Shown: positions 7,158 through 32,293, counted from the stretch's first letter. The stretch: DNA of 41,827 bases from Candidatus Marinamargulisbacteria bacterium (GCA_964202165.1 CAXNHA010000001.1:1-41827), one strand, 5' to 3'. Numbers and translations are program-made. The notes: generated by a model from the letters alone, not told the origin.

Positions 7158-7697
7158 TTAATCTGACTTGGTTTTTATCTGGATGGTTGCCATCAAATCC
7201 AAAAAAGCCTTGTTGCGAATAACAGGCCTCAAGTCTTTGAGGGCCACATAATAACCGCAACCGTCATACACATGACCGTGTTGGATAAAAGCACTCAAGG
7301 GATATTGCCGACAAAACAAGGGACGATCTTGGTAGTGACGACATCGGTTGTTTTTTGTCAGCCATTGGCATGAGAATGAAACGATTTTTTCAGGATTTGT
7401 GCGATGATAGTGTGGAAGAAAAGAATCATATTTTGAATACGGTTGCATGAGGCGTTGGTAGTCTTTTTGTGTTCCCACCACCTGTCCTTGGCATACCAAT
7501 TCAATACGACGACAACACATACCCGAATGCTGGCATGCGCCTGCAATATAAAAAAGCTCGCACTTCATCCATTGCCACAAAATAGCTCTATAACGTTCTT
7601 TTTTTAGCACAACCTCATTGAGTAAAAACAACGTATACAGCCCATAGAATATCCATGGATTTGATTTTGGAGAATGCAGGTACGCATCAAAATGCAT
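7158..7697 (-). CDS. YkgJ-family (UPF0153, CxxCxxCC-type) cysteine-cluster protein with a hydrophobic N-terminus
   Basis: 179-aa ORF with cysteine clusters CELFYIAGACQHSGMCC and FSCQWLTKNNRCRHYQDRPLFCRQYP. The second matches the C-x-F-L...C-x-I-Y-x-x-RP-x-x-CR-x-[FY]P signature of PF03692. Its ATG (7697-7695) overlaps the TAA of the giant ORF (7699-7697) by 1 nt. Confidence 0.65.
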   Translation of the reverse strand: MHFDAYLHSPKSNPWIFYGLYTLFLLNEVVLKKERYRAILWQWMKCELFYIAGACQHSGMCCRRIELVCQGQVVGTQKDYQRLMQPYSKYDSFLPHYHRTNPEKIVSFSCQWLTKNNRCRHYQDRPLFCRQYPLSAFIQHGHVYDGCGYYVALKDLRPVIRNKAFLDLMATIQIKTKSD

Positions 7698-8290
7698 TAT
7701 TTTTTCAAAGCGTCTAATCGACCTAGAATAGCCTGTATTTCTGCTTGCTGTTCTTTGTAGGTGTGTTGAAAGTCTGTTTGCATCTTAGTCCGTTGAGCCT
7801 GCAGGTCTTTTAAGGCATTCTCGGTTTGCCTGACTTGATCCAAATGCGGTACCAAATCTGGCGTGCTAAACGCAAACCCAACTGCTGTCAGCACGTGGGC
7901 CACGTCTTGGCTACCAGCGGAAGACTCTTCCCACGCTGTACCAACAATAAAGGGTATTTGCTCCATCTGAATGGCTTTTGGCGACACAGCAACCCCTGTA
8001 CCATCCTCACGCCCTGATGGGACAATATAGTCCCCTTGGTGCACAATCCCTCGTACAGCCACGGGAACTTGCCCAAAAAATGCAATCAATTCATAGTCTT
8101 TTTCTTTGGCAGACCCTGGCCAATTACCCACCACACCAGGTGCCGTACTTTTGACCATAATATGCTGGGCAAACCGGGTAGACTTTGAGACTTTTCCATT
8201 GTATACCCCCACCAGATCTCCTTTTTGGATAACCTCGGATGCAACCTGTCTTTGTAGATACTCTGCGTAGTCTTTGGCACTGGTTGTATA
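7697..8290 (-). other. C-terminal non-repeat domain (starts SAKDYAEYLQ) plus a terminal ~55-aa coiled coil of the giant protein
   Basis: The sequence is SAKDYAEYLQRQVASEVIQKGDLVGVYNGKVSK...GVVGNWPG...YELIAFFGQVPVAVRGIVHQGDYIVPSGREDGTGVAVSP...IVGTAWEES. It is followed by the heptad-like LDQVRQTENALKDLQAQRTKMQTDFQHTYKEQQAEIQAILGRLDALKK. It is clearly distinct from the repeat body. Confidence 0.5.
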
Positions 8291-11200
8291 GCTCACCCCA
8301 TACCTAGAGGTACCAACCGTGCTATCCGTCCCCACAATAGCACCCGCCTTGTTTTGCGGTGAAGGGCCATAATAAAAAGACATATACGTCGTATTGCCAG
8401 GAGTCCCATTCAGATTATACAAAGCAAGCGCATCAGCCCCCTGGCCTTGGGTTTGGATGATCATGGCATGAGAGGAGAGCCGATCTGATTTGTCTACCGT
8501 ATCTCCTCGCACATGAAGTCTAGCCAATGGAACAAAGGCTGTATCTATTCCATTGGATATCCCAACATTTCCCGTTGTATTGACCTGAAAAACAGGTTTG
8601 AAGTCACTTCCAACAGACCCATCTCCAGTATACCCTACCGCAAATCGACTTGGTTGGGATGCAGAAGACAAGTTTTTTCCAATACCTACCCTCAATTCGG
8701 ACTGCATATCCTTCGAATTGTAACGTGTCATCCATAAAGGCACCCCATTGTCCGAATTATAACTAGAACTCATATCTGGACCGCCTGAAAAATACAAGAC
8801 ACTACCATATGCGACAGGCGACTGTGGGGAAGTAGCAGCAAAAACCCTTCCCAATCTCATATCCCCATTGATGTGCAAGGTCTCAGAAGGATCGGTCAAT
8901 CCAATCCCAACACGGCCAGAGGCTCCCGCTGCTTGCACCACCAATCCAACCGCACTTGTTTGGGAAGAATCTTGCACCGAAAAGCCCATCTTCCCATTTC
9001 CATAACCCTTCAAGAAGATCCCACTCCCATCTGTCAACCCAAACCGTGCAATGTCGGTCGGGGTACTATTACCCAAATCCCTTGCTACCACATGCAAGGG
9101 TGCCAGCGGATTAGAGATCCCAATTCCCACATACCCCCCTATAAAATCTGCTGCAACTCTAGATCCGTCATAGCCATTGAGCACCGTAGCTCCTACGCCC
9201 GTCACATCTACTCTTAACCCTGTACTGGTCGCTCCGTTGTACACAGAGTACGGTCGTCCATATTTGGTATACGTATCTGCTGCAAGGGTTATGCCAACAC
9301 CCGTCACATCACTTGTCATATCATTTGCAACTGTCACTGCAACAACTTGACCCGTTACCGCTTTTGTATCTGTATTGACTGTTAAAAAAGATTTTAATGT
9401 GCCTGTTAAATTGAGGGTTGAAATAGAAATATCCCCAGAGGTAACTTGGATGGACGTTGCCATCAATGCCCCCTTAACGTGTAGATTGGTAGAAGGCAGA
9501 CTTGTCCCTACTCCCACATATCCGTCTTTAGCAGATACAACAAAAGCATCTTTTGGAAGACTCCCGTTGAGGCCAACCGACTGAATCTTAAATATAGTCC
9601 CTGTGGACTCTGTTGATTTGATATGCAGGTTAGCTGAAGGATACATATCTGCCTTCGAAATACCCACACGCCCATCCGGGCTAAAACTCATGACATTTGT
9701 CACTTGATTCGAAGCGCTGAGAAATTGAAACGTCATATTTCTTGTAGAACTTGACCATAGAGTAGGCATCGACCCTCCGGAGAGTGTATTGATTCCGAAG
9801 AAAAGAGAGCTGTTACCACCTTTGGATGCAACCAAAAACCCTTTGGAATCTTGTCCAATCGACGTAACTGAAGCATCAGAAAACCCTTGTGAGATAAAGC
9901 TACCAGAAAAAACCACACCCTCAACACTCAAAGGATAGATCGGACTAGAGGTGCCAATGCCAACCATCCCATCAGAACCCACAAAAAAGACATTTTTTTT
10001 AGCAACACTATCGACTTGAAAAAGAGGAACAGTACCAGAGCCTACCACATGCAAAGATGCCGAAGGTGTCATCGTGCCAACCCCCAAAAACCCTTTTTTA
10101 TCAAAGACAAATGCACTGTTATTGGCTCCATAAATACGGAAAGGATCTATGCTACTATCCGAAGCAATTGTCAGCTGGGCATTGGGAACATTAGAGGTGG
10201 TAATACCGATATGCCCATCGTTTCGGGCAAATAAAATTGTTTTTTTTGCCGAAGTTAAGACATGCAATACAGAGTCCCCAGCAATACTGGACTTTGCTTT
10301 AATCGTGAGTTTTGCATCTGGAGAAGGCGTGCCAATCCCCACATACCCTCTATTGGTCACTGTCAGCGCGTATGGGAGAATAGCCCCAGTTGTATCTTTG
10401 GCATCTACTCTAAATGGTGAGTCCGTGAGAGATTCGTTGATCACATGAAGACTAGCTCTTGGTTGAGTCGTCCCCATCCCAACATGGCCCCCCATAAACA
10501 AGGCTGCATATTTGTATCCTGTTTTATTTTGATCACTTGGAAGGGTCTCCGTCGTAGATTGCTTTGCCCTCACTGTGGTCATATCTACCTCAAGTCCTAT
10601 GGCTGTTTCGTTTTCTCCCAACCGTCCAAATTGAAAAGGGTCAGAGGGATTACTCCCTGAAAACTGAATAGCCATCCCTTTAAAAATACCTGTGGATGCT
10701 AGATTACCCGCTCTATCCGTAAAATTCATTTGAATACGCTGTCCATAAATATCGCCAACAGCAGCAGTATTAGGCGTAGAGGCAATGTTCAGTTGCACCA
10801 ATTGATTGGCTGTCCCTACAGAAAACGTCTGTGCATCTGGGTCCCAAGAAAGATTAGCAGAAGAACTGAGATTGCCATCTTTCCCATAAAATGGGATTTT
10901 CTTGGGCATTCCCGCCAGGGATTGTGTGATCTTAGCCACTCCTTTTGGGCCTGATCCACCGCTTGGATACATATAATTCAATTGACCCACGGGATCCACA
11001 TACAAAATACCAGCCCTTGCATCGGGTACCGGTGGAGAGGCCATTTTTGTCAACAACAACCCCGAATTGAGTCTCACCGATCCCGTAACCGACACATCTC
11101 CTTTTACCGCAAGCGTATTATCCATGGTGATAGACATCCCCTTAGTGGTTAACCCTGTTATACGGGAGACCGTCAACTGGTCATCGATAGTCATCGCACC

Positions 11201-14200
11201 TTGGACATACACATTACCAACAACTTCCATAGCATAAGGCTTAACGGGAGGTGAGGTTTTTCCCACAGACAAGGTAGAAAAAGACGCCAAACTAGTCGCA
11301 TTAATCGTCGAAAAAGAACCTGTGGCAACGGTCAATACCCCCCGAATACGCATCGCATTAACCGAAACAGTTTTGGCATACAAGGTATTGACTGTCACTC
11401 CCCCATCAAAATTGACCCGATTGGATACCGTTAATGTATTAAATGTTGCCGAAGTTACCTCTATCCCTCCCGAAAGAAAGAGTTTTGAAGCTCGAACATC
11501 CCCATTCACATGCAGCATACTTTGTGGCTGGATCACCCCAATTCCCACGCTACCGCCAAGAAAAATGGCAGCCCGACGTGTCCCTGTTGTGCCAGAAACA
11601 TCCACATAAAGACCTGTAGCACTTGCGGACGAACCCAAGACCATATCGCTTAAATTAATACTCACGCCAGTTGCCCGCACAACCTGACCAGCCTGACCAA
11701 ACACACTTCCTGGCACTGTTTTTATTGCAAGATCGAGCCCCGTTATGTTCTGATCAAAAAAGAACTGCGTATTTGGTCGGGTCTCTCCAAGAGTGACCTC
11801 AAATTTTTGAGCCGTATACCCCTGACTTTGGCTGTTTGAATCCAACTTTTTAACCAAATGGACATTGACATTGTCACTTGGTAGCGCGGTTCCAATCCCG
11901 ATATTACCAGAAGATGTCACCACAAATTTACCATCTCCTATATCTAATTTTCTAGCAGCCATGGTATCAAATATCCCTACGTTAGCACTCACCGTCCCAT
12001 TCACATCTAGTTCGGAAGAAGGAGAGGCTTTGCCTATACCGACATAGCCATCATTGCGGACAACCATAATGGGATTAAGCGCGCTATTGAGAATGGTGAA
12101 CGCAGATTTTGACGCATCACTGGTTTCTCCCAAAACAGTCAATTTGGCCACAGGGTTAGACACCCCAATCCCAACATGCCCGGATTGAGGAATAGACAGT
12201 GCATAGGCAAGCCCAGGCCCAGTGCCATCCACGCGAAAAGGAGCCATGCCCGGATTGCTCACAACATGCAACGCAGCTTCTGGCGAAGAGGTGCCCATAC
12301 CAACGGACCCTCCCGAAAATAAGGCTGCATATTTTTTACCTTTTTCCAATTTTCCTGAGCTCGTGTACTGCTGGGCACTCAGACGTGTCATGTCCACATA
12401 CAGTCCAATAGCGGTTTCTCCATCTGCCAATCGACCAAACCCAGTGGGATCAGCCGGATTGATACCAGCAAATTGTACAGAAAGCCCTGTGTATACCCGG
12501 CCACTTGAGTTGGATACATTGGATCTGTCTTGAAACCCCAGATAAATTGTTTGTGCCGACAGATTGTCCACAACACTCGCATTCAGGGTAACCCCCACCT
12601 CAAAACGGGTTAATCGATTGGCTGTTCCAATGGTAAATTTGGACATATTAGAATCCCAGAACAAGGGCGCATCATCACTCAAACTTCCCGACGCACCAAA
12701 ATAAGGAATACTCATAGCCCTGCCAAAAAAAGCTGAGGACACATTAATCGGAAAGCCCTGGCCAGGCCGTTGATAATACAAATGATTGTCCACAGCACTC
12801 ACATACAACCCACCATAACCAGATAAAGCAGGCGGAGGAGTCGCCATTCTCTTAAGATAAAGCCCTTTTGAAAACACCATCTCTCGGTTGGAAGAAACAT
12901 TGCCATCAATCTTAACCAGTCCATTGGCAGAAATCACCAAGCCCACACCAGAGCCCACCAGTTTTGGCACTTGCAAATTGCCCAAAACCACTAGATTGCC
13001 ACTCACCCTCATGGTGCCATTCACATCTAATTTGGAAGTGGGATTCACCACACCAATCCCCACGTTGCCATCGTGGGCAATCCTCATGCTTTCTTTAGAC
13101 GGTCCATTGACAGGATCTGTCACAAACACAAGATGTGAACTCGGCAATCCAGAAAAAGAAGAGGCTCTAACAGCAAGGATACCGGACCCTACGGAAGCCG
13201 AAGGGACAGTATCATCTGGGATCAGCAAAATCCCTGTCCCCACCTTCTCCACATTGCTCTTGGTCTGAATACGCAATGCATTCCAGCTATCTGTATTGGC
13301 AGGATCAAACGGAAGCACCTGTGCACCCCCGTATTCTAGATGCAACTTGGACAAGGGCTTATCAGTACCAATGCCAACTCGACCCGAACTCCCGCCTACC
13401 ACGAGATACGAGGTGCCAACCAAAGGATCTCTAATATTAAATGTGGCCGACTCTAATACCAAGGCATCTGTCACCACCAATGATGTGGTTGAAAAATTCC
13501 CAGAAACTCTCAATCCTGAAGCTGGACTTGTGGTCCCAATCCCAACCCCTTGTGAAAAAACTGCCTTGTTTGCCAAAAGAAGATTTTGCACCTCTAGCTG
13601 ACCTGCTATCACATCGCCTGAAAATCTTGCCACCGTTGCATTGATTGTAGAAAAAGTAGCCACAGGGGCACTCAATCCAGATAAAATACGCAACGAATCA
13701 GCGGTAATCTCCTTTAAAACAACCAGTTGATTAACCGTAACCGTCCCATTAAATGTAGCCGCTTGATTGACCACCAAGCGATCAAAAATAGCCTTTGAAC
13801 TCTCAAAATTACCCCTCAACCGCAGATTGGTTACGTTTAAGGTACCTACAACATCCAATGCATATTGAGGACGTGTGGTGCCAATCCCCACAAACCCGCC
13901 ATTAAAGATAGCTGCCACACGTTTTCCAGTTGTTCCAGAAACATCAATATCCAAGCCAGTCACTTTGCTATTGGCTTGAACATTCAGGCTACTCACATTA
14001 ATACGAATACCTGTGGCATTTGCAGCCAAAATATTGGACTGGTCAAACGACTGAAATAGAATATCCAATCCTCGGATATTGTTATTCAGATAAAACACAT
14101 TTCCTGGACGAGCTGCATCAATGGACAAGTCTATTTTTTGAGAGATGACATCCCCCGTCTTAACATCATTAATTTCTGTTTTGATATCCAGCTGTCCTTG

Positions 14201-17200
14201 TGGATGAGCTGTACCTACCCCTATTCTACCGGACTCATCTACCACCAACGTATTCCGATGCACATTTAATGTGGTCGTCATCAATCCACCGGTCACAACC
14301 ACTCTATTTGCTGACACCGTCCCTCTCACATTCAACTCATAATCAAGGACATCTGGATTGGTGATCCCAATGCCAATCCTAGGCCTGTTGACATTGTTGA
14401 CTAGCTTGGACATGGCAACAAGAGACCCCTTATCCACATCCAGCCGAGGAACCGTGAGCCCACCTGTTAGGTTAAAATAATTGGCAGAGACCGTTCCATT
14501 GACTTCCAGCTCTGCTTTTGGTGTCAGCGTACCGATACCCACGTTGCCACCCTTAAAAATTGCCGCATATTTGGCACCTGTTTCTTTGACATTCACAGAG
14601 GCCACATCCACAAACAAACCAATGGCCTGTGCATTGTTCAACAATTGTGTGCCAGGTTTTGACTTTATGACAATATCCATCCCTTTTACTTGGATAGGGG
14701 TTGTGATGTTTCCCCAATTGTTGTTGATATTGACCAAGAGGTTTTCAGCAGAAAAACCATTGATTTCCCTCAAGTTACCATCATGTGTCAGCATTGCCTC
14801 CAAAGCCAAGGCAGCATTATCCGCACTGATAGACGTCGTAACCTGCACGGATCCTTGGGGCAAATTGATACGCCGTGCCACAACACTTCCTGATACAAGC
14901 AGCTGTTTTTGATCTTTTTTCCATTGGATAGAGGTTTCTCCCAAGCTCGAACTATCGACCCAAAATGCAAGGTTGCCCGTTGCCCCAGAACCCCGTTGAA
15001 GGGGAGAAGAAATCACTTTAACATGGGCAAGGTCTGTCGAATTAACATACTTCAACTCCCCGTCTTCCACATACAGTCTGCCTTCATTATTTTGAGCATT
15101 TACTTTTTGATCAGCCAATTTGAGCATATTAGTCCGCAGATTACCTTCCAAGTTTAGAGAAAGAGGCCCATCTGTTTGAAACGTATCAACAACAATCCCA
15201 CCTTTAACTTCTAGTTTTTGAGATGGATTGGATATGCCAATACCCACATTGCCAGATGTATAGTAGATATTTGTACCCGATGTTTTCCAAGGATTTGGCT
15301 TTTCTATAAATTCTTGCCCCCCAATAAACAACCGATCCGTATTCACTGCACCCCCTACCAACACCCGATAGATACTAGAGGTATTGGATGTCCCAATCGC
15401 CAAATTGCCAGACACAATGACATTGCCACTCACATGCAACAACGCTTTGGGTGGCATCAGTCCTGTGCCAATACCTACAGAAGCATCAGAAATCGCAAGA
15501 GCCGGATTTTTGACCAATCCTCCCCCCGAATTAATGGTAAACAGATGCCCCGTCTTCGTAGAATTTGAAGTCACCCCAAGCGTATATAAATCCACATTGT
15601 TGAGATCAAAGGTAATCACAGGAATATTTTTGCTAGGATTCATGTTGGACAACGTCAACAAATTACTCGGCGTGGTTGTCCCAATTCCTACCTTGCCATT
15701 GGACCGAAACGTATTGCCCCCATTTTTGTCTGGATCAGCCCACGGAGACCCTGGATTGGGTTGTAAGGTAATCGTCGCCTGAGGGTTGTTTTTATCCACC
15801 AATTTAAATTCGGTCCCTTGAATACCTCCTTTTACAACCAACACACTGTTTGGAGGAAATTGGTAGCCAGTTGTGACCCCAATCCCCACATTGCCAGAAG
15901 CTGTTACAAGGATCGCTGCTGTCGGACTAGCGTACGGCAACACTGCAAAAATATTACCCGTTGTCTTGTTATGTTTGATGGTCACAAATCCAGATTGTGC
16001 CGTTGTACCAAACCCAATAGGGCCTCCTACTACAGCAAGCTTCATAGCACCAGGCCTCGTTGTTCCGATCCCCACACCGCCCGCTACGTTGACAGCCAAT
16101 GCCTCATTATTGTTGTTGCCCACCATGCGCATGATCAAATCCGAAGAAGATCCTGTTTTAGAAACCGTCAATGCAACACCCTGGGTTTGAGTTGTATTAA
16201 TACCCACCCCATTCTGTGCTCGGATCAGAAATTGATTGGGTCCGGTTGACTCAAAAGGCGTAGAAGGAACCGTATAATCCGACCACACAAAACTACCCGC
16301 GTGCTTTGCCTTTGCCCGATTGCCAGCCGCAAAGCTATAGTCTCCAGCAGCACTGTTTTCTAGCCCGCCTGGCACTGTCGCATATTTGCCAGTTGCTTCG
16401 TTTTTAAACCCTCCCGCAACCGTGGCGCCTTCCCCCGTCACAAGAGGAGAATAGCCCATTCCTACAGAATACTTGCCAAGCTTAGATTGGTCCCACTGAT
16501 CAAATAAGACATATCCTGCCCGAAATGCCGACTTACCAGGATACCAAATCAACTTAGAACCAGCGCCTGTTTCAAGCAAGGGTTCGGCACTATCCAATTG
16601 CCCGCTAAATACCACACCCGAGTTGCCACTCACCTGCAAGGTAGCACTTGGAGATCCAATTCCGATACCCAATTTTCCTCCATTAAAGGAAAATACTGGC
16701 GTTTTGAGATCGCTTCCTTTTGAGATAACAAAGGCATCTTGGTTTTTAGCATCCACCCCCAAGGTAAACAAACTTGTCCCTCCGATGCTAAATCCAATCG
16801 CCGCATTTTGACTCACACTGGCCAATTCCAATAAGTTGCGGGGTTCAGCAGTACCGATACCCACATTCCCCAAGTCATAAAACAACCGAGGCCTCGCCGC
16901 ATTGCTTTCAAGATACCAAAAACTTCCTGTAGAAAATGCCTTGTTCAAGGGCTGCCCATTCACTCTAAAATCTTGAGCATCCACAATACCTTTGACTTGC
17001 AAAGCCTGAGAAGGCAGAGATGTCCCAATTCCAACATGGGTATCGTCAACATACAACATGGAGCCACCTTTTACGTCTCTTACCGAAAGCAAGGTGCGTC
17101 CTGAAGCATCTCCTCGAATATCGAGATGGGCCTGAGGATCTGATGTGCCAATACCAAGAGAGGCTACATCTGTTTTCCAAACCAATTTTTCTGCTCCTAA

Positions 17201-18241
17201 CAGCTGTTTGTCCCCAGTCCAAATCGCAATCTGGCTATTGCGACCACTACCGCCAACCCCTATCAACGACCGCCAACCTTGAGATGTATACCCCTGAAAA
17301 TCTCCATTTATATATTGAATGGTTCCCAATTGAGGCGTTTGTGCAACTGCTTTTGAGATGCGAATCGCACCGTTGACATCCAATTTTTCCACTGGATCAG
17401 ACACCCCTATCCCGATAAATCCTGCATTTGGCAAAGAGCCATCATCAAAATAAATATGTTTGCCAATACCCGATTTCCAAGCCAGTTCTGCCTTTAGTTG
17501 ATCGGATAAATTAACCCCATTAATGCGATATTCTCTGGCATTAACTGTTCCTACAATCTCAAAGGCATATTGTGGTGTTGCAGTTCCAATGCCTACTTTC
17601 CCTGCATTGTAGTAGATCGTGGTGCCTAGCTTTTTCCAAGACAACGCCGACTCCACATCTTCTCCGTTTATCCGAAATCCTTGCGCATTAATAACACCTA
17701 CAACATCCAAGGGATACTGCGGAGATGCTGTACCAATCCCAACCCGCCCCTGCTCCGCTTTCACCACAAACGCATTGGCATTGACATAGACATTAGATTT
17801 AATATCAACAGTAGGAAAAGTCCCCACAACCTTGGCGGCATCCACAAGCATGACGGACTCTGCAATACGAGACTGAATAGCATATGGCGTAGAAGGGATA
17901 GGAAATGATGCAACCCCATTCATATTGGTAACAGACACAATAAACCGAGGATTGGTACAATTAAACATCTCTTCGTCGATCAGTTTTTTGGGATCTGTAC
18001 CCAAAATAATGCTAAAAGCCCCGCCCACAAACAACACTTGTTTAGGTCCTGATGTCCATTTTTGTTGCACCCCATCATAGAGGCTGATAACAATTTCTCT
18101 ACGTCCTTCCAAAGGGGTTCCTGTTTTACTCCCCAGTGTTGCTTGAAACGCCACCATCATAGGGGTGGTGCCGGCCAACAACAGGGTGGTGCCGGAAAGA
18201 ATACTTACAACCAATACCATCATCCATTTTTTAAATTTCAC
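7697..18241 (-). CDS. Giant secreted repeat protein (3,514 aa), tail-fibre-like surface fibre or adhesin
   Basis: One uninterrupted 10,545-nt ORF. The GTG start has GAGGA 6 nt upstream. The N-terminus MKFKKWMMVLVVSILSGTTLLLAG looks like a signal peptide. About 35 copies of G-x-[VI]-G-[IVM]-G-[TVI]-x-x-P-x-x-x-L-x-[VI]-x-G are present. The composition is Gly/Ser/Thr/Asn/Val-rich, and the protein ends in a DYAEY domain plus coiled coil. Confidence 0.85.
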   Translation of the reverse strand: MKFKKWMMVLVVSILSGTTLLLAGTTPMMVAFQATLGSKTGTPLEGRREIVISLYDGVQQKWTSGPKQVLFVGGAFSIILGTDPKKLIDEEMFNCTNPRFIVSVTNMNGVASFPIPSTPYAIQSRIAESVMLVDAAKVVGTFPTVDIKSNVYVNANAFVVKAEQGRVGIGTASPQYPLDVVGVINAQGFRINGEDVESALSWKKLGTTIYYNAGKVGIGTATPQYAFEIVGTVNAREYRINGVNLSDQLKAELAWKSGIGKHIYFDDGSLPNAGFIGIGVSDPVEKLDVNGAIRISKAVAQTPQLGTIQYINGDFQGYTSQGWRSLIGVGGSGRNSQIAIWTGDKQLLGAEKLVWKTDVASLGIGTSDPQAHLDIRGDASGRTLLSVRDVKGGSMLYVDDTHVGIGTSLPSQALQVKGIVDAQDFRVNGQPLNKAFSTGSFWYLESNAARPRLFYDLGNVGIGTAEPRNLLELASVSQNAAIGFSIGGTSLFTLGVDAKNQDAFVISKGSDLKTPVFSFNGGKLGIGIGSPSATLQVSGNSGVVFSGQLDSAEPLLETGAGSKLIWYPGKSAFRAGYVLFDQWDQSKLGKYSVGMGYSPLVTGEGATVAGGFKNEATGKYATVPGGLENSAAGDYSFAAGNRAKAKHAGSFVWSDYTVPSTPFESTGPNQFLIRAQNGVGINTTQTQGVALTVSKTGSSSDLIMRMVGNNNNEALAVNVAGGVGIGTTRPGAMKLAVVGGPIGFGTTAQSGFVTIKHNKTTGNIFAVLPYASPTAAILVTASGNVGIGVTTGYQFPPNSVLVVKGGIQGTEFKLVDKNNPQATITLQPNPGSPWADPDKNGGNTFRSNGKVGIGTTTPSNLLTLSNMNPSKNIPVITFDLNNVDLYTLGVTSNSTKTGHLFTINSGGGLVKNPALAISDASVGIGTGLMPPKALLHVSGNVIVSGNLAIGTSNTSSIYRVLVGGAVNTDRLFIGGQEFIEKPNPWKTSGTNIYYTSGNVGIGISNPSQKLEVKGGIVVDTFQTDGPLSLNLEGNLRTNMLKLADQKVNAQNNEGRLYVEDGELKYVNSTDLAHVKVISSPLQRGSGATGNLAFWVDSSSLGETSIQWKKDQKQLLVSGSVVARRINLPQGSVQVTTSISADNAALALEAMLTHDGNLREINGFSAENLLVNINNNWGNITTPIQVKGMDIVIKSKPGTQLLNNAQAIGLFVDVASVNVKETGAKYAAIFKGGNVGIGTLTPKAELEVNGTVSANYFNLTGGLTVPRLDVDKGSLVAMSKLVNNVNRPRIGIGITNPDVLDYELNVRGTVSANRVVVTGGLMTTTLNVHRNTLVVDESGRIGVGTAHPQGQLDIKTEINDVKTGDVISQKIDLSIDAARPGNVFYLNNNIRGLDILFQSFDQSNILAANATGIRINVSSLNVQANSKVTGLDIDVSGTTGKRVAAIFNGGFVGIGTTRPQYALDVVGTLNVTNLRLRGNFESSKAIFDRLVVNQAATFNGTVTVNQLVVLKEITADSLRILSGLSAPVATFSTINATVARFSGDVIAGQLEVQNLLLANKAVFSQGVGIGTTSPASGLRVSGNFSTTSLVVTDALVLESATFNIRDPLVGTSYLVVGGSSGRVGIGTDKPLSKLHLEYGGAQVLPFDPANTDSWNALRIQTKSNVEKVGTGILLIPDDTVPSASVGSGILAVRASSFSGLPSSHLVFVTDPVNGPSKESMRIAHDGNVGIGVVNPTSKLDVNGTMRVSGNLVVLGNLQVPKLVGSGVGLVISANGLVKIDGNVSSNREMVFSKGLYLKRMATPPPALSGYGGLYVSAVDNHLYYQRPGQGFPINVSSAFFGRAMSIPYFGASGSLSDDAPLFWDSNMSKFTIGTANRLTRFEVGVTLNASVVDNLSAQTIYLGFQDRSNVSNSSGRVYTGLSVQFAGINPADPTGFGRLADGETAIGLYVDMTRLSAQQYTSSGKLEKGKKYAALFSGGSVGMGTSSPEAALHVVSNPGMAPFRVDGTGPGLAYALSIPQSGHVGIGVSNPVAKLTVLGETSDASKSAFTILNSALNPIMVVRNDGYVGIGKASPSSELDVNGTVSANVGIFDTMAARKLDIGDGKFVVTSSGNIGIGTALPSDNVNVHLVKKLDSNSQSQGYTAQKFEVTLGETRPNTQFFFDQNITGLDLAIKTVPGSVFGQAGQVVRATGVSINLSDMVLGSSASATGLYVDVSGTTGTRRAAIFLGGSVGIGVIQPQSMLHVNGDVRASKLFLSGGIEVTSATFNTLTVSNRVNFDGGVTVNTLYAKTVSVNAMRIRGVLTVATGSFSTINATSLASFSTLSVGKTSPPVKPYAMEVVGNVYVQGAMTIDDQLTVSRITGLTTKGMSITMDNTLAVKGDVSVTGSVRLNSGLLLTKMASPPVPDARAGILYVDPVGQLNYMYPSGGSGPKGVAKITQSLAGMPKKIPFYGKDGNLSSSANLSWDPDAQTFSVGTANQLVQLNIASTPNTAAVGDIYGQRIQMNFTDRAGNLASTGIFKGMAIQFSGSNPSDPFQFGRLGENETAIGLEVDMTTVRAKQSTTETLPSDQNKTGYKYAALFMGGHVGMGTTQPRASLHVINESLTDSPFRVDAKDTTGAILPYALTVTNRGYVGIGTPSPDAKLTIKAKSSIAGDSVLHVLTSAKKTILFARNDGHIGITTSNVPNAQLTIASDSSIDPFRIYGANNSAFVFDKKGFLGVGTMTPSASLHVVGSGTVPLFQVDSVAKKNVFFVGSDGMVGIGTSSPIYPLSVEGVVFSGSFISQGFSDASVTSIGQDSKGFLVASKGGNSSLFFGINTLSGGSMPTLWSSSTRNMTFQFLSASNQVTNVMSFSPDGRVGISKADMYPSANLHIKSTESTGTIFKIQSVGLNGSLPKDAFVVSAKDGYVGVGTSLPSTNLHVKGALMATSIQVTSGDISISTLNLTGTLKSFLTVNTDTKAVTGQVVAVTVANDMTSDVTGVGITLAADTYTKYGRPYSVYNGATSTGLRVDVTGVGATVLNGYDGSRVAADFIGGYVGIGISNPLAPLHVVARDLGNSTPTDIARFGLTDGSGIFLKGYGNGKMGFSVQDSSQTSAVGLVVQAAGASGRVGIGLTDPSETLHINGDMRLGRVFAATSPQSPVAYGSVLYFSGGPDMSSSYNSDNGVPLWMTRYNSKDMQSELRVGIGKNLSSASQPSRFAVGYTGDGSVGSDFKPVFQVNTTGNVGISNGIDTAFVPLARLHVRGDTVDKSDRLSSHAMIIQTQGQGADALALYNLNGTPGNTTYMSFYYGPSPQNKAGAIVGTDSTVGTSRYGVSYTTSAKDYAEYLQRQVASEVIQKGDLVGVYNGKVSKSTRFAQHIMVKSTAPGVVGNWPGSAKEKDYELIAFFGQVPVAVRGIVHQGDYIVPSGREDGTGVAVSPKAIQMEQIPFIVGTAWEESSAGSQDVAHVLTAVGFAFSTPDLVPHLDQVRQTENALKDLQAQRTKMQTDFQHTYKEQQAEIQAILGRLDALKK
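10460..15130 (-). repeat. Protein-level super-repeats inside the giant ORF: alternating modules B0-A1-B1-A2-B2 (boundaries approximate)
   Basis: A modules lie at about 14230-13600 and 11900-11260. Both contain ...TGL[DY][IV]DVSGTTG[KT]R[VR]AAIF.GG.VGIG... followed by ...ATFN..TV.....F[ND]G.VTVN.L........S.... B modules lie at about 15130-14500, 12865-12290 and 11065-10460. They run from ...G.LYV.....L.Y... to ...GRL..GETAIGL.VDM.......KYAA[LI]F.GG.VG[MI]GT. Confidence 0.6.
18146..18241 (-). other. Predicted Sec signal peptide of the giant protein (about the first 32 codons)
   Basis: There is a positively charged n-region (MKFKK), a hydrophobic core (WMMVLVVSILSGTTLLLAG), and small residues (TTPMMVAFQA). 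I cannot determine the cleavage site by eye. Confidence 0.55.
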
Positions 18242-18315
18242 GGTTTTTCCTCAAAAAATGACCTATCTTTAATAGGCTCTATCGTTTGTTTCAAGCCAAA
18301 ACTTGCACACATGTT

Positions 18316-18918
18316 TTACAAAATACCCATCAATCCAGATAGAATAGGGGCCAAAATCCATTGCATAACCAACGAAAAAAAACCAAAATAAGCCAAAGCA
18401 AAAATGATTAAAAAGCCATATGGCTCTATGCGATCCAAGGCATGTCGCAGAGCATCTGTGCCAAAATAAGCCAGGATACGAGAGCCATCCAATGGTGGTA
18501 TAGGAAACAAATTAAACAACCCCAACAACAAATTAATTTGAATAAAATAAGGCATCCATATCCACATCCAGGTTTGATCCACTACCTTCAAGAGCATCAC
18601 CCCTACAATAGCCATAAAAAAATTGGCAATCGGACCTGCAAGAGCCACCCACATCAAGGCTTGGCGGGGCCTGTGAAAATACCGACTCTGCACCGGCACA
18701 GGTTTGGCCCACCCAAAGAAAACTTGAGACCCTGATACAAGGGCCAACAAAGGCAATAACACAGACCCCACCGGATCAAGATGAACAATGGGATTTAAAG
18801 ACAACCGACCCGCTTGTTTAGCCGTAGGATCACCCAACCAATAGGCCATCCATCCATGGGATAGTTCATGAACAATGATACAAACCAACAACACCACAAA
18901 CTGTAAAAAAATAATCAT
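18316..18918 (-). CDS. Site-2 protease family (peptidase M50) intramembrane metalloprotease, small form
   Basis: An HExxH motif sits in a TM helix (IIVHELSHGWMAYWLGDPTA), followed by NPIVHLDPVGS and LFNLFPIPPLDGSRIL. The ORF track begins at 19023. The start MIIFLQF at 18918 gives an ATGA overlap with the xer stop and removes a 35-aa extension lying inside xer. Confidence 0.8.
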   Translation of the reverse strand: MIIFLQFVVLLVCIIVHELSHGWMAYWLGDPTAKQAGRLSLNPIVHLDPVGSVLLPLLALVSGSQVFFGWAKPVPVQSRYFHRPRQALMWVALAGPIANFFMAIVGVMLLKVVDQTWMWIWMPYFIQINLLLGLFNLFPIPPLDGSRILAYFGTDALRHALDRIEPYGFLIIFALAYFGFFSLVMQWILAPILSGLMGIL

Positions 18919-19799
18919 CGCCGAACAGCCCTCGGATGTGCTCTCTGATACATAGTTTTGACCTTTTCTCTTGTCAAATGGGTATACAGCTGTGTTGTGG
19001 TAATATCTGCATGACCAAGCCATGATTGCACTTCTCTCAGGTTGACTTCTTTTTCCAAAAGATGTGACGCAAAACTATGCCGAAACAAATGCGGATAGAC
19101 TTCCATGGACAATCCCATTTTTTTTCCATGCGACCGCAACATTCTAAAGACAGATTGCCTAGACAATCCCCTCCCAGCTCTGTTTAAAAACACCTTTTCC
19201 TCATGAGAAGACCGACAAAGCACGCCTCTTTCCCGATCAAGATACCGACGGATCGCCATGATCGCACAAGATCCTACTGGCACCTGGCGTTGTTTGCCCC
19301 GTTTTCCCCATACCGTTACCACCGAGGCCTCTATATCCAGTTGAGAGAGCAACAACGCACAGCACTCTGACACCCGAAGCCCGCAAGCATACAACAATTC
19401 TGCAATAGCGCGGTCTCTGTCTGGGAAAGCCGACTCAAACCTCTGATCAAGAAACAAAGCAATATCGTGGATAGACAATATTTTTGGCAATGTTTGGGAC
19501 ATTTTTGGAATAGCAACCCACTCTTCGACAGAAGAAGTCGTCAGCCCTTCATTCCTGCAAAAAACCAAAAAAGACCGTATCGCTGAGAGTTTTCGTCGAA
19601 CCGTTGCAGGTGCATAGCGCCGTGCATCCATCCACATCACATAAGCATCCATCTGCGCCTGATTAACAGGATTTTTGCCAAGAAACTGACGCCACTGTTC
19701 GAGATCAGACCCATACGCTCCAATCGTATGAGAGGAGGCCCCTCGCTCTACTTGAAGTCCCCACAAATACTCTTGGACAACCTCTTTTGCAACTATCAT
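18915..19799 (-). CDS. XerC/XerD-family tyrosine site-specific recombinase
   Basis: 294-aa ORF with the C-terminal catalytic region HLFRHSFASHLLEKEVNLREVQSWLGHADITTTQLYTH and the upstream ARG motif (YACGLRVSE). I see no flanking repeats or phage genes, so it is probably the chromosome-dimer-resolution enzyme. Confidence 0.88.
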   Translation of the reverse strand: MIVAKEVVQEYLWGLQVERGASSHTIGAYGSDLEQWRQFLGKNPVNQAQMDAYVMWMDARRYAPATVRRKLSAIRSFLVFCRNEGLTTSSVEEWVAIPKMSQTLPKILSIHDIALFLDQRFESAFPDRDRAIAELLYACGLRVSECCALLLSQLDIEASVVTVWGKRGKQRQVPVGSCAIMAIRRYLDRERGVLCRSSHEEKVFLNRAGRGLSRQSVFRMLRSHGKKMGLSMEVYPHLFRHSFASHLLEKEVNLREVQSWLGHADITTTQLYTHLTREKVKTMYQRAHPRAVRR

Positions 19800-20338
19800 G
19801 CCAAACGAGCTTTAAGCAACTGAATCCCCAACAGGGTTTTTAAGTCTTCAACAAGTCCATCAGCCACCCATGTTTCTAAAACCTCCAAGAAGAGAGACTG
19901 CACAACAATCTCTTCATCCGGACCATCGGTATGAGGCTGACCTTGTGTAAGATCAGTTGCTAAGAAAAAATGGAGGTATTCATTGGTAAATCCAGGTGCA
20001 GAATATCCGCCCCCTAACGGGTACCAACACGTCGCACTCAACCCCGTTTCTTCATGAAGTTCACGCTTGGCCCCTTCCAGGGGATCTTCTTGTTTATTCA
20101 AGAGCCCTGCGGGAAATTCCCATAGCAATTTTTTGATCGGAAATCTGTATTGCTGGACAAGATAGACAGTGGGATTGGATATAGCGAGACTATCGATAGG
20201 AATAATAACAACAGCAGGATCGTGAAGAATCATATCCCGTTTTATCCGAAATCCAGACTCCAGTTGAATATCCTCTTGATAAGCCTTAAAAATTGGCCCG
20301 TCATATAAAGTGGTAGATTGGATACAGTGGCTATTCAT
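19796..20338 (-). CDS. NUDIX hydrolase (ADP-ribose pyrophosphatase-like)
   Basis: 180-aa ORF with the Nudix box GLLNKQEDPLEGAKRELHEETG. It has a 4-nt ATGA overlap with xer. Confidence 0.85.
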   Translation of the reverse strand: MNSHCIQSTTLYDGPIFKAYQEDIQLESGFRIKRDMILHDPAVVIIPIDSLAISNPTVYLVQQYRFPIKKLLWEFPAGLLNKQEDPLEGAKRELHEETGLSATCWYPLGGGYSAPGFTNEYLHFFLATDLTQGQPHTDGPDEEIVVQSLFLEVLETWVADGLVEDLKTLLGIQLLKARLA

Positions 20339-25516: not shown

Positions 25517-27099
<1,583 letters not shown>

Positions 27100-31801: not shown

Positions 31802-32293
31802 GTGTCAAGTTTGAATAGGATTTTACTGATTGGTCATCTGGAAACACAACCAGATGTTAAGGCTACAACCAATGGGGACTTGGTAGCTCGCTTCTCTTTG
31901 AGTGTTCCTCGCCCAGATAGAGGCGAAGGGTATCAGGCAGATACCGACAGTTTTCCGTCCGTGGCATGGCGACAGGTTGCGGAAAAGCTCCAATCTTTTC
32001 AAAAAGGGGATTGGGTTTTAGTAGAAGGAAAGATTTTGACCCGTACATACGAAGAGGACCCTGCAAAGGGTCGTCAGTACATTACAGAGATCGATGTCAG
32101 AGATGTGAAGCCCCTTATGCAAGGGGCAGAGACGTCACAAAGCAACACATTTGCACAGAGCTCTTCTATGGTGAGCAAGGAAACAGCCGTAGATGACAAG
32201 GATTTTAATTTTGAAGAGGACCCTTTTGCTCAGAAAGCGAGTTGGGATCCAGGCAAATTGAGTCCAGGTGAAGAAGAGGAGATCCCTTTTTAA
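31802..32293 (+). CDS. ssb: Single-stranded DNA-binding protein, divergent OB fold, with the canonical acidic C-terminal tip (EEEIPF)
   Basis: 163-aa ORF with a GTG start and an AAGAGG Shine-Dalgarno. The OB fold reads LNRILLIGHLETQPDVKATTNGDLVARFSLSV...VAWRQVAEKL..KGDWVLVEGKILTRTYE. A low-complexity linker and a terminal EEEIPF follow. Confidence 0.85.
   Translation: MSSLNRILLIGHLETQPDVKATTNGDLVARFSLSVPRPDRGEGYQADTDSFPSVAWRQVAEKLQSFQKGDWVLVEGKILTRTYEEDPAKGRQYITEIDVRDVKPLMQGAETSQSNTFAQSSSMVSKETAVDDKDFNFEEDPFAQKASWDPGKLSPGEEEEIPF

What the first reader, a model, noticed from the sequence alone, without database searches (positions are those of the whole stretch)
7697..18241. 3,514-aa tail-fibre-like giant surface protein embedded in a housekeeping operon string
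One uninterrupted minus-strand ORF of 10,545 nt takes up a quarter of an otherwise housekeeping window.

Seen directly:
- The GTG start has GAGGA 6 nt upstream.
- The N-terminus looks like a Sec signal peptide.
- Residues ~35-90 (QATLGSKTGTPLEGRREIVISLYDG..W......V.GGAFSIILG) resemble the head segment that opens many bacterial tail-fibre-like proteins.
- I counted about 35 copies of G-x-[VI]-G-[IVM]-G-[TVI]-x-x-P-x-x-x-L-x-[VI]-x-G, for example GRVGIGTASPQYPLDVVG, GNVGIGISNPSQKLEVKG and GYVGVGTSLPSTNLHVKG.
- The copies are separated by 20-150-aa Gly/Ser/Thr/Asn/Val-rich spacers.
- I recognise no enzymatic motif, LPXTG signal, lipobox, autotransporter barrel or T9SS tail.

From established knowledge, this short motif is typical of the stalks of phage tail-fibre and endosialidase-like trimeric fibres.

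Inference: this is a very long, probably trimeric, cell-surface fibre or adhesin of phage-fibre ancestry. It has been domesticated in the chromosome, with no phage genes nearby. The genome is compact enough that most neighbouring genes overlap, so a 10.5-kb gene suggests a central role in attachment to a host, prey or substrate. How it is exported and anchored is not explained by anything in the window.
Basis: partly seen in the sequence, partly recalled or inferred. Interest (0 to 1): 0.8.

Follow-up and report, generated by a model that had tools for sequence, protein, structure and literature searches.

The report
Giant conserved surface fibre of Margulisbacteria
The 10.5-kb gene is real and encodes a very long, secreted, probably three-stranded fibre, built like the prey-grabbing fibres of Bdellovibrio and the tail spikes of phages; an entire little-known bacterial phylum keeps it nearly unchanged at the same chromosomal spot, but its function has never been studied.

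Summary
Window 7697..18241 (-) is one 3,514-aa ORF with a GTG start, a GAGGA ribosome-binding site and a Sec-type leader. A motif HMM finds 34 copies of the xGxVGIGTxxPxxxLxVxG motif.

It is not an orphan. About 65 clusters of 2,900-5,650-aa homologues exist, and those with organism names are Candidatus Margulisbacteria. Twenty-two full-length orthologues align collinearly (44% mean column identity). Four related genomes keep the gene in the same housekeeping neighbourhood. It diverges no faster than its housekeeping neighbours.

- **Leader and N-terminus:** a signal peptide, then a ~100-140-aa beta-sandwich domain that opens 18,895 other protein clusters.
- **Stalk:** about 3,150 aa. Its profile best matches, in the PDB, four Bdellovibrio MAT fibre structures and the UspA1 head.
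a phi29-gp12-type (Peptidase_G2) self-cleaving auto-chaperone with an invariant DYAEY motif, then a coiled coil.

Best reading: a MAT-like homotrimeric surface fibre about 0.2 µm long. It folds from its C-terminus and is cleaved before D3324. An adhesive role is inferred only.

Not shown: trimer state, surface location, outer-membrane route, ligand. Recent "domestication" of a phage gene is not supported.

This is a new variant of a known kind, of moderate to high interest.

The parts
7697..18241 (-). Complete gene for the 3,514-aa fibre protein (GTG start, TAA stop)
   Evidence: The identical protein is on record on ENA contig ERZ27280245 k141_35613. Full-length orthologues share 33-49% identity over their aligned length.
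18248..18252 (-). GAGGA ribosome-binding site, 6 nt upstream of the GTG
   Evidence: Read directly from the sequence.
18170..18241 (-). Residues 1-24: predicted Sec signal peptide (K/R-rich n-region, hydrophobic core, cleavage near A23/G24)
   Evidence: Sequence. All orthologues carry an equivalent leader that ends just before the conserved 'TTPM.ITFQA' block. SignalP was not available.
17753..18169 (-). Residues 25-163: N-terminal beta-sandwich domain plus conserved neck (PSTPYAIQSRIAE...GTF). This is the presumed cell-proximal anchoring end.
   Evidence: AlphaFold model: mean pLDDT 85, and >90 over model residues 11-90, i.e. about protein residues 34-113. No significant relative in the PDB or BFVD. 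The profile matches 18,895 clusters, nearly always at the N-terminus. Some of those proteins end in Peptidase_S74, LamG/TLDc or collagen.
8273..17752 (-). Residues 164-3323: fibre stalk with 34 copies of the xGxVGIGTxxPxxxLxVxG 'capping-loop' module
   Evidence: counts; the copies are kept in register in 17-22 of 22 orthologues. (PHROG tail-fibre families). (matches to Bdellovibrio MAT fibre structures).
16172..16489 (-). Residues 585-690: YadA/UspA1-like head repeats (GxxSxVxGGxxNxAxG). This is the most conserved part of the stalk.
   Evidence: UspA1 head 3PR7 at 1.3e-15 with the orthologue profile, and 1.8e-4 (3NTN) and 2.9e-4 (3PR7) with the single sequence. Weak Pfam UspA1_rep hit. 57% mean identity among orthologues.
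10046..13183 (-). Residues 1687-2732: two tandem copies of a ~440-600-aa super-module (1687-2127 resembles 2301-2732). A further duplicate pair is 1206-1541 and 1944-2322.
   Evidence: Tile-against-self BLASTP: 31-41% identity, E down to 6e-60.
8270..8272 (-). Codon of D3324: predicted autoproteolytic cleavage site K3323|D3324, at the start of the invariant DYAEY
   Evidence: Residue 1 of the cleaved phi29 gp12 C-terminal fragment (3GQH, 'DFAEYFE') aligns to this Asp. D-Y-A-E-Y is invariant in 25 of 25 and 22 of 22 family members.
7862..8272 (-). Residues 3324-3460: Peptidase_G2 / phi29 gp12-type intramolecular (auto-)chaperone domain
   Evidence: Profile against PDB: 3GQH at 1.6e-4, and the Dpo31 chaperone domain D4 at 3.2e-4. 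Pfam PF11962 matches 23 of 25 members, best E 2.9e-8; the window protein itself scores 20.4 bits against a cut-off of 25. Model pLDDT is 87-97 here, and the top Foldseek PDB hits are 3SUC and 3GQH, probability 1.0.
7700..7861 (-). Residues 3461-3514: C-terminal linker and long amphipathic helix (predicted coiled coil)
   Evidence: Model helix 270-320, i.e. protein residues 3463-3513, with pLDDT about 90. Present in all orthologues, but only 24% identical.
7158..7697 (-). Downstream CxxCxxCC (PF03692) gene whose ATG overlaps the fibre gene's stop codon (TAATG)
   Evidence: A CxxCxxCC gene also follows the orthologue in L085. A functional link is not shown.
18316..20338 (-). Upstream NUDIX - Xer-type recombinase - Peptidase_M50 cluster, a conserved neighbour of the fibre gene
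   Evidence: The same cluster lies next to the orthologue in L084, L085 and L086. Its proteins are 33-54% identical to the window's.

Best explanation
The gene encodes a giant secreted fibre protein of the same construction as the mosaic adhesive trimer (MAT) fibres of Bdellovibrio and as phage tail spikes. It is a vertically inherited core gene of Candidatus Margulisbacteria.

**Proposed mechanism**
1. The Sec leader (residues 1-24) takes the chain across the inner membrane. This step is inferred from sequence.
2. The C-terminal 191 aa form a phi29-gp12-type (MEROPS G2) auto-chaperone plus a coiled coil. They bring three chains together and nucleate folding of the intertwined beta-helical stalk from the C-terminus towards the N-terminus. 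This step is inferred from homology.
3. The chaperone then cuts itself off before D3324 and exposes the mature distal end. This step is also inferred from homology.
4. The mature fibre spans about residues 25-3323. It contains 34 VGIG-loop modules, one YadA/UspA1-like head segment and tandemly duplicated ~600-aa super-modules. By scaling from the ~550-Å model of the 922-aa Bd3182, it would be about 0.2 µm long.
5. The N-terminal beta-sandwich holds the fibre at the cell surface, and the C-terminal two-thirds project outwards. This step is inferred by analogy with MAT proteins.

**Most likely role:** attachment to another cell, a host or a substrate.

**Confidence by step:** the fibre identity is well supported (about 0.85). 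The adhesive role is the weakest step (about 0.5).
For: **The gene is real and under selection**
- About 65 homologue clusters, including 22 collinear full-length orthologues with 44% mean column identity.
- The motif copies are kept in register.
- Its divergence (39-48% identity) equals that of neighbouring NUDIX, XerC, M50 and PGK (33-55%).
- It sits next to NUDIX-xer-M50 and/or gap-pgk in four other genomes.

**Stalk homology**
- PHROG tail-fibre families at 4.6e-38 and 1.2e-37.
- The orthologue profile's best PDB matches are the UspA1 head (1.3e-15), Bd2133 (3.5e-14), Bd1334 (4.9e-9), Bd2439 (2.9e-6) and Bd3182 (2.5e-5).
- All five are parts of experimentally trimeric fibres. This is stated for the Bd proteins in PMC10769870. 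For the UspA1 head it is established knowledge.
- The repeated motif corresponds to the MAT 'capping loop' consensus.

**C-terminal chaperone**
- Matches to 3GQH and to Dpo31 D4, with the invariant DYAEY aligned to the first residue of the cleaved gp12 fragment.
- PF11962 matches 23 of 25 members.
- The confident model's top structural matches are gp12 3SUC and 3GQH.
- The gp12 and Dpo31 D4 domains are described as trimeric auto-chaperones that are cleaved off (PMC13317679).

**N-terminus**
- A conserved leader followed by a beta-sandwich of MAT-like size and position, with no PDB relative. The same absence of PDB homologues is reported for the MAT N-terminal domain.
- The same domain heads proteins that end in Peptidase_S74, LamG or collagen, the mosaic pattern described for MATs.

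**Viral counterpart**
- A 905-aa viral protein has the same repeats and the same C-terminal domain.
Against: - Trimerisation was not modelled; only monomer predictions were possible.
- The window protein's own PF11962 score (20.4 bits) is below Pfam's gathering cut-off of 25.
- The Foldseek E-values for gp12 are modest (about 8e-4; TM 0.53 on the target).
- Homology of the N-terminal domain to that of the Bdellovibrio MATs could not be tested, because no Bd N-terminal sequence could be retrieved.
- No expression or localisation data exist.
- The route across the outer membrane is unknown. Margulisbacteria are reported to have OmpM-type outer membranes.
- Adhesins usually have fast-evolving tips. 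Here even the region before the cleavage site is 37% identical, and the length is almost fixed. That fits a conserved structural role or a conserved ligand better than variable target recognition.
Confidence: 0.62

Rival explanations
1. The molecule is the same trimeric MAT-like fibre, but its job is structural rather than adhesive. It would be a fixed-length envelope component, such as a surface coat, a spacer or 'ruler', a cell-cell connector or a sheath element that every Margulisbacterium needs.
For: - It diverges like a housekeeping gene, and its length and module number are almost invariant (gap fraction mostly below 0.1).
- It keeps a fixed chromosomal neighbourhood among housekeeping genes.
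- The most conserved parts are internal (residues 585-690), not only the two ends.
Against: - All characterised relatives are binding or recognition devices: Bd MATs, phage spikes and UspA1.
- Residues 2401-3100 are the most variable stretch of the stalk (34% identity, up to 19% gaps), as expected for a target-facing part.
- No S-layer, SLH or lattice-forming domain was found.
Confidence: 0.25
2. It is a phage, tailocin or contractile-injection-system fibre that belongs to a resident mobile element. This would be a recently captured or still phage-borne gene.
For: - PHROG tail-fibre hits.
- A G2-type chaperone, as in podovirus spikes.
- A viral contig protein of the same design.
- A 'Phage_integrase' Pfam hit two genes upstream.
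Against: - The 42-kb window contains no capsid, portal, terminase, baseplate or sheath genes.
- The recombinase is Xer-type (SAM_1 plus integrase domains), and related genomes have it in the same cluster.
- G+C content and skew do not change across the gene.
- tblastn of both end domains against 50,697 phage genomes gives no match.
- Genomes with only 33-55% identical housekeeping proteins keep collinear orthologues at the same locus.
Confidence: 0.03
3. It is a trimeric autotransporter adhesin (type Vc secretion) of the YadA/UspA1 class.
For: YadA/UspA1-like head repeats at residues 585-690 (1.3e-15 with the profile). Some orthologues carry a precomputed PF05658 YadA_head hit.
Against: - There is no C-terminal YadA beta-barrel anchor. 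The C-terminus is a G2-type chaperone plus a helix.
- The head-like segment covers only about 100 of 3,514 residues.
Confidence: 0.02
4. It is an assembly or annotation artefact, or a decaying pseudogene.
For: None, beyond the unusual length and the repetitive content.
Against: - The identical protein is recorded on two contigs.
- Intact 3,450-4,113-aa orthologues come from many independent assemblies (JGI, ENA, NCBI, Logan).
- The frame is open for 3,515 codons, with a good ribosome-binding site.
Confidence: 0.01

Closest known systems
Mosaic adhesive trimer (MAT) fibre superfamily of Bdellovibrio bacteriovorus (Caulton et al. 2024, PMC10769870), e.g. Bd2133, Bd1334, Bd2439, Bd3182
   Same: - A signal peptide, then a ~130-aa beta-rich N-terminal domain with no PDB homologue, then a long stalk, then a separate C-terminal tip or chaperone.
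- The stalk modules ('ERMRIT..GNVGIGT..P...L.V.G') align to four Bd fibre structures at 3.5e-14 to 2.5e-5.
- The repeated loop equals the MAT 'capping loop' consensus.
- The N-terminal domain is shared with proteins that end in S74 or lectin-like tips, the mosaic principle of MATs.
   Different: - It is 3.5 times longer than typical MATs (about 1,000 aa). The longest listed in that paper's Table S3 is 1,915 aa.
- Its C-terminus is a phi29-gp12/G2-type chaperone, not S74. There is no PF13884 hit and no C-terminal SDxxxK motif.
- It carries an internal YadA-like head.
- It is one, or in some genomes two, highly conserved syntenic gene copies per genome, not a diversified repertoire of 21.
- The host phylum is not known to be predatory.
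- Direct homology of the N-terminal domains was not tested.
Phage phi29 gp12 pre-neck appendage (tail spike) and related depolymerase spikes with a C-terminal auto-chaperone (Pfam PF11962 Peptidase_G2; PDB 3GQH, 3SUC; Dpo31 domain D4)
   Same: The C-terminal domain is homologous in sequence and in predicted fold. The invariant DYAEY aligns with the first residue of the released gp12 fragment. The expected function is trimer nucleation followed by self-cleavage.
   Different: - The rest of the protein is unrelated to the gp12 pectate-lyase-like spike.
- There is no enzyme domain.
- An extra C-terminal coiled coil is present.
- The context is cellular and housekeeping.
- It is about four times longer.
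S74-type phage fibres and spikes (K1F endosialidase, T5 pb1 L-shaped fibre) and 'tail fiber domain-containing proteins' of bacteria
   Same: The same VGIG-type stalk loop, PHROG tail-fibre hits, and the C-terminal intramolecular-chaperone logic. More distant homologues of this protein do end in PF13884.
   Different: The chaperone belongs to a different family (G2, not S74).
Trimeric autotransporter adhesins (UspA1, YadA)
   Same: Head-repeat segment at residues 585-690.
   Different: No beta-barrel translocator or anchor; the export logic is different.
Viral fibre protein on IMG/VR contig IMGVR_UViG_3300008117_007925 (L087 801..3518, 905 aa)
   Same: About 30 'IGV.T..P.Y.LDV.G' repeats followed by a GADYAEYL-type C-terminal domain that is 40% identical to the window's.
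   Different: No signal peptide or N-terminal beta-sandwich is evident. It is four times shorter and lies in a viral context.

Membership tests
MAT (mosaic adhesive trimer) superfamily | N-terminal Sec signal peptide | tested here: met
   The K/R-rich n-region, hydrophobic core and small residues at A23/G24 are conserved in all aligned orthologues. This was judged by eye and by alignment; SignalP was not available.
MAT (mosaic adhesive trimer) superfamily | [quoted passage not shown] | tested here: inconclusive
   - A beta-sandwich of the right size and position is predicted (pLDDT 85).
- It has no PDB relative, as reported for MATs.
- It is shared with S74-terminated fibre proteins.
- No Bdellovibrio N-terminal sequence could be obtained for a direct comparison.
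MAT (mosaic adhesive trimer) superfamily | Fibre stalk homologous to MAT stalks, with the capping-loop motif | tested here: met
   34 motif copies. Profile matches to the Bd2133, Bd1334, Bd2439 and Bd3182 chains.
MAT (mosaic adhesive trimer) superfamily | Homotrimeric, intertwined assembly | not testable with these tools
   Only monomer structure prediction was available. The trimer state is inferred from homology to trimeric structures and from the trimerising chaperone.
MAT (mosaic adhesive trimer) superfamily | C-terminal S74 chaperone-protease (SDxxxK) or an alternative independent tip domain | tested here: met
   S74 itself is absent: there is no PF13884 hit, and the only SDxxxK is at residue 281. 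An alternative independent C-terminal domain, the G2-type chaperone, is present. This places the protein with the paper's 'non-S74' type, but with a tip class not described there.
MAT (mosaic adhesive trimer) superfamily | Display on the cell surface | not testable with these tools
   Needs proteomics, microscopy or labelling.
Peptidase_G2 / phi29 gp12-type intramolecular chaperone (PF11962) | Match to the family model at the curated threshold | tested here: inconclusive
   The window protein scores 20.4 bits against a cut-off of 25. However, 23 of 25 family members match at E<=0.1, with a best E of 2.9e-8, and several orthologues carry a precomputed PF11962 hit.
Peptidase_G2 / phi29 gp12-type intramolecular chaperone (PF11962) | Conserved Asp at the cleavage site, with an acidic residue three positions later (D-x-x-E) | tested here: met
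   DYAEY is invariant in 25 of 25 and 22 of 22 sequences. The Asp aligns with residue 1 of the released gp12 fragment 3GQH, and with 'SDYAEYFE' of Dpo31 D4. The catalytic roles of the Asp and Glu are recalled from MEROPS and were not tested here.
Peptidase_G2 / phi29 gp12-type intramolecular chaperone (PF11962) | Fold of the gp12 C-terminal domain | tested here: met
   Foldseek against the PDB: 3SUC at 7.6e-4 and 3GQH at 9.5e-4, probability 1.0, TM 0.53 normalised to 3GQH. The model region has pLDDT 87-97.
Peptidase_G2 / phi29 gp12-type intramolecular chaperone (PF11962) | Autoproteolytic release after trimer assembly | not testable with these tools
   Needs expression of the C-terminal fragment and of D3324/E3327 mutants.
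Trimeric autotransporter adhesin (type Vc) | C-terminal YadA-type beta-barrel anchor | tested here: not met
   No Pfam hit. The C-terminus is the chaperone domain plus a helix.
Prophage or tailocin tail fibre | Location within a cluster of phage structural or lysis genes | tested here: not met
   All 42 kb are housekeeping genes. The neighbourhood is conserved in four related genomes.

The most novel reading that the evidence does not exclude
The protein may be a hallmark organelle of the whole phylum Margulisbacteria: a roughly 0.2-µm, vertically inherited surface fibre that evolves as slowly as glycolytic and cell-division genes.

It would be the physical basis of the cell-to-cell or host-attached lifestyles seen in the few members that have been observed. 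One lead is the thin 'fimbriae-like' tubes that connect the Trichoplax symbiont Ruthmannia to its vacuole membrane (bioRxiv 10.1101/568287). That study attributed the tubes to a chaperone-usher system.

The family would also show that MAT-type fibres are not a predator speciality. They would instead be an ancient, bacteria-wide class with a common N-terminal anchor domain (18,895 clusters) that still has no Pfam model, here combined for the first time with a G2-type self-cleaving chaperone.
Probability: 0.3. Interest if true: 0.75.

Novelty: new variant of a known kind. Interest (0 to 1): 0.58.

Why it matters
- **Margulisbacteria biology.** They are an uncultured sister lineage of Cyanobacteria with small genomes. 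Two surveys note that the phylum is enriched in very large genes, and one of them adds that none could be assigned a function. This work gives one such gene family a concrete, testable molecular identity: a MAT-like trimeric fibre with a predicted self-cleavage site.
- **Conservation.** The fibre is conserved in length, module order and chromosomal position across the phylum. That suggests surface attachment, or a fixed envelope fibre, is central to the biology of these organisms.
- **Reach of the fibre architecture.** The architecture described in 2024 for Bdellovibrio extends to a different phylum, a 3.5-fold greater length and a second chaperone type.
- **An unmodelled domain.** The N-terminal domain is very widespread but has no Pfam model, and it would merit one.

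Tried and rejected
1. The Pfam, NCBIfam and PDB sequence scans of the single protein gave only weak hits. Orthologue profiles were needed to get clear matches.
2. The search for related loci in genome contigs with the neighbouring CxxCxxCC protein found nothing. PGK gave the taxonomic and synteny lead instead.
3. The search for homologous proteins with the N-terminal alignment A1 returned nothing, and a 136-aa single-domain query returned one hit. No Bdellovibrio MAT N-terminus could therefore be fetched, and that membership feature stays untested.
4. Two cluster-member runs on 20 distant N-terminal-domain hits gave organism names only for three Margulisbacteria or unnamed-bacterium records.
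5. tblastn of the N-terminal and C-terminal parts against INPHARED phages gave no match.
6. Foldseek of the N-terminal model against the PDB and BFVD gave only generic beta-sandwiches (E>=0.007).
8. Promoter and terminator scans around the gene found nothing above shuffle expectation.
9. No tRNA genes or Rfam families are present in the window.
10. P0030 (Marinamargulisbacteria) could not be located on a contig.
11. These readings were considered and rejected: trimeric autotransporter (no barrel), prophage fibre (context), RTX/T1SS adhesin (it has a Sec leader and no RTX repeats), LPXTG or T9SS cargo (no signal), and lipoprotein (no lipobox; the single Cys is at residue 94).

Full report
**1. 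The observation**

The minus-strand ORF 7697..18241 exists as described. It is 3,514 aa long, starts with GTG, and has GAGGA 6 nt upstream. At the window's ~45% G+C, an open frame of 3,515 codons cannot arise by chance.

The protein is rich in G, V, S, T and N and has a single Cys.

The repeated motif is real:
- The core [VIL]G[IVM]G.xxPxxx[LVIMF] matches 27 times, against 0.005 expected in shuffles.
- An HMM built from those copies finds 34.

Tile-against-self BLAST shows that the protein also grew by tandem duplication of large modules. Residues 1687-2127 resemble 2301-2732, and 1206-1541 resemble 1944-2322, at 31-41% identity.

**2. Where it comes from, and whether it is a real gene**

The identical protein is recorded on ENA contig ERZ27280245 k141_35613.

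A search of 5.8 billion proteins returned about 65 clusters of giant homologues.
- Some 40 clusters are orthologue-like: 2,900-4,113 aa when complete, 31-48% identical, with 60-100% of the query covered.
- About 20 belong to a second paralogue group (P0046-P0067).
- Most records that name a taxon name Candidatus Margulisbacteria, Margulisiibacteriota or Marinamargulisbacteria. Two (P0024, P0054) are labelled 'Thermoproteota archaeon', probably from a mis-binned contig.

PGK from the window is only 55% identical to its best match among 185,579 species genomes. That match is a groundwater MAG called only 'bacterium nzgw233'. A Margulisiibacteriota MAG is third, at 51%. The window therefore represents a poorly sampled lineage. 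I assign it to Margulisbacteria on the strength of the fibre family and synteny, not on a marker-gene tree.

Twenty-two full-length orthologues align collinearly, with 44% mean column identity and few gaps. Each strong motif copy is kept in register in 17-22 of the 22.

The chromosomal position is conserved:
- The nzgw233 contig has the orthologue directly upstream of gap-pgk-DUF5665.
- L084 has NUDIX-xer-M50-(PMT_2)-fibre-...-gap-pgk-DUF5665-lspA-rluD.
- L085 and L086 have the NUDIX-xer-M50 cluster next to the orthologue, and a second giant paralogue on the other side of that cluster.

Identity of the fibre to these orthologues (39-48%) is the same as for neighbouring NUDIX (40-44%), XerC (33-40%), M50 (47-54%) and PGK (55%).

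This is a vertically inherited gene under purifying selection along its whole length. It is neither an artefact nor a recent acquisition.

**3. Anatomy**

*(a) Residues 1-24: Sec-type leader.* The orthologue alignment places the mature N-terminus at the conserved 'TTPM.ITFQA' block.

*(b) Residues 25-163: N-terminal domain.*
- The model is a confident beta-sandwich (pLDDT 85), followed by a conserved 'PSTPYAIQSRIAE' neck.
- It has no significant structural relative in the PDB or in BFVD.
- No Pfam model covers it.
- Its profile matches 18,895 clusters at E<=1e-3 and 1,041 at E<=1e-10. In all but a few of the 150 listed hits the match lies just after a leader, in proteins of 130 to 4,800 aa.
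- Sampled partners end in Peptidase_S74, in LamG plus TLDc, or contain collagen repeats.
- One annotated example is a 'tail fiber domain-containing protein' of Flammeovirga.

*(c) Residues 164-3323: stalk.*
- PHROG tail-fibre families match at 4.6e-38 and 1.2e-37.
- With the orthologue profile, the only PDB matches are the UspA1 head (1.3e-15, residues 584-681) and four Bdellovibrio fibre structures: Bd2133 (3.5e-14), Bd1334 (4.9e-9), Bd2439 (2.9e-6) and Bd3182 (2.5e-5).
- The aligned unit is '...ERMRIT..GNVGIGT..P...L.V.G'. This is the 'capping loop' that Caulton et al. defined in the trimeric beta-helix of Bd3182.

*(d) Residues 3324-3460: C-terminal domain.*
- A profile of the family's C-termini matches the released C-terminal fragment of phi29 gp12 (3GQH, 1.6e-4). 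It also matches the 'chaperone domain D4' of the depolymerase spike Dpo31 (3.2e-4).
- The family's invariant DYAEY lies on the first residue of the 3GQH chain.
- PF11962 (Peptidase_G2, IMC autoproteolytic cleavage domain) matches 23 of 25 members, with a best E of 2.9e-8. The window protein itself scores 20.4 bits, below the 25-bit cut-off.
- The AlphaFold model is confident here (pLDDT 87-97), and its top PDB matches are gp12 3SUC and 3GQH.
- Both reference domains are described as trimeric auto-chaperones that are removed after assembly.

*(e) Residues 3461-3514:* a short linker and a long helix, probably a coiled coil.

There is no S74 domain, no beta-barrel, and no LPXTG or T9SS signal.

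**4. How it most likely works**

The chain is exported by Sec. Three chains are then registered by the C-terminal chaperone and coiled coil. The stalk folds from the C-terminus, and the chaperone cleaves itself off before D3324. The mature fibre stays attached through the N-terminal beta-sandwich and projects its C-terminal part.

*Shown here:*
- the domain homologies;
- the invariant cleavage-site motif;
- the conserved leader;
- the conservation and synteny.

*Inferred:*
- trimer state;
- cleavage;
- orientation;
- surface display;
- fibre length. It would be about 0.2 µm, scaling from the ~550-Å model of the 922-aa Bd3182.

The outer-membrane route is unknown. Margulisbacteria are reported to have OmpM-type outer membranes.

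Function is the weakest step.
- All characterised relatives bind surfaces, which favours adhesion.
- The near-fixed length and slow divergence favour a conserved ligand or a structural role. I keep that as the main rival, at 0.25.
- The most variable stretch of the stalk is residues 2401-3100 (34% identity), a candidate target-facing region.

**5. Comparison with what is known**

The closest described family is the MAT superfamily (PMC10769870).

*Met here:* leader, stalk homology and motif, and an independent C-terminal module.

*Inconclusive:* homology of the N-terminal domain to the Bdellovibrio one. The size, position, beta-rich fold, lack of PDB relatives and mosaic partners all fit, but no Bdellovibrio N-terminal sequence could be retrieved.

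*Not testable:* trimer state and surface display.

*Differences from described MATs:*
- It is 3,514 aa long, against about 1,000 aa for typical MATs. The longest example in the paper's table is 1,915 aa.
- It has a G2-type chaperone instead of an S74-type one. The paper's main text mentions neither phi29 nor an auto-chaperone of that type.
- It contains an internal YadA-like head.
- It is present as one or two slowly evolving copies, not a diversified repertoire.
- Its host phylum is not known to be predatory.

It is not a trimeric autotransporter, because it has no barrel. It is not a prophage fibre, because it has no phage context.

A viral protein with about 30 of the same repeats and the same C-terminal domain exists (L087). 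The ancestry is therefore shared with viral fibres, but the direction of transfer is unknown.

**6. Novelty and verdict**

Two surveys report that Margulisbacteria are enriched in very large genes, and neither assigns them a function. I found no paper that describes this family.

I rate it a new variant of a known kind: a MAT-like or tail-spike-like fibre. Interest is about 0.58. A specialist would not be surprised by the fold. The surprise lies in a 10.5-kb fibre gene kept collinear and syntenic across a phylum with small genomes, and in the G2-type chaperone on a cellular fibre.

Noticed in passing
window 31802..32293 and 32293..32640 (+): Two SSB genes in tandem (163 and 115 aa) lie between rpsF and rpsR. 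The usual arrangement is rpsF-ssb-rpsR with a single ssb.
   Followed up: no
window 7158..7697 (-): The ATG of a CxxCxxCC (PF03692, YkgJ-type) gene overlaps the fibre gene's stop codon (TAATG), which suggests translational coupling. A CxxCxxCC gene also follows the orthologue in L085 (18450..19004), but not in L084 or L086.
   Followed up: partly
L085 1..4808 and L086 1..7991: In two Margulisbacteria genomes the NUDIX-xer-M50 cluster is flanked by two giant paralogues. One is the orthologue of the window gene; the other is a group-B protein of 3,457-3,718 aa with the same N-terminal and C-terminal domains. The 42-kb window has only one, and whether its genome has a second is unknown.
   Followed up: partly
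L087 801..3518 (IMGVR_UViG_3300008117_007925): A viral-contig protein of 905 aa consists almost entirely of about 30 'IGV.T..P.Y.LDV.G' repeats. It ends in a GADYAEYL-type domain that is 40% identical to the window's C-terminal chaperone. Another hit (L088) is on a contig labelled as a giant-virus MAG.
   Followed up: partly
window 17753..18169 (-), residues 25-163: The N-terminal beta-sandwich domain has no Pfam model and no solved structure, yet it matches 18,895 protein clusters. It is a very common unmodelled domain that opens fibre-like proteins.
   Followed up: partly
P0024 and P0054: Two giant Margulisbacteria-type fibre proteins on one 107-kb contig are labelled 'Thermoproteota archaeon' at NCBI. 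The contig is probably mis-binned or the MAG mislabelled.
   Followed up: no
L084 6239..7882 and 18519..19424: In the closest orthologous locus a PMT_2-family glycosyltransferase and an LPG_synthase_C protein are inserted on either side of the fibre gene. A sugar epimerase lies nearby there and in L085. This hints at glycosylation or envelope modification in some lineages. The window has no such genes.
   Followed up: no
window 23842..25485 (-) and the 93-aa gene between it and the enolase gene (25795..27078): A PknB-type Ser/Thr kinase with a PASTA domain sits next to a small DivIC/FtsB-like gene (weak Pfam hit) and enolase. The window also carries Fe/Mn superoxide dismutase, a peroxiredoxin and haem-synthesis genes (hemA, hemC, a hemD-cobA fusion), which suggests an oxygen-exposed lifestyle.
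   Followed up: no
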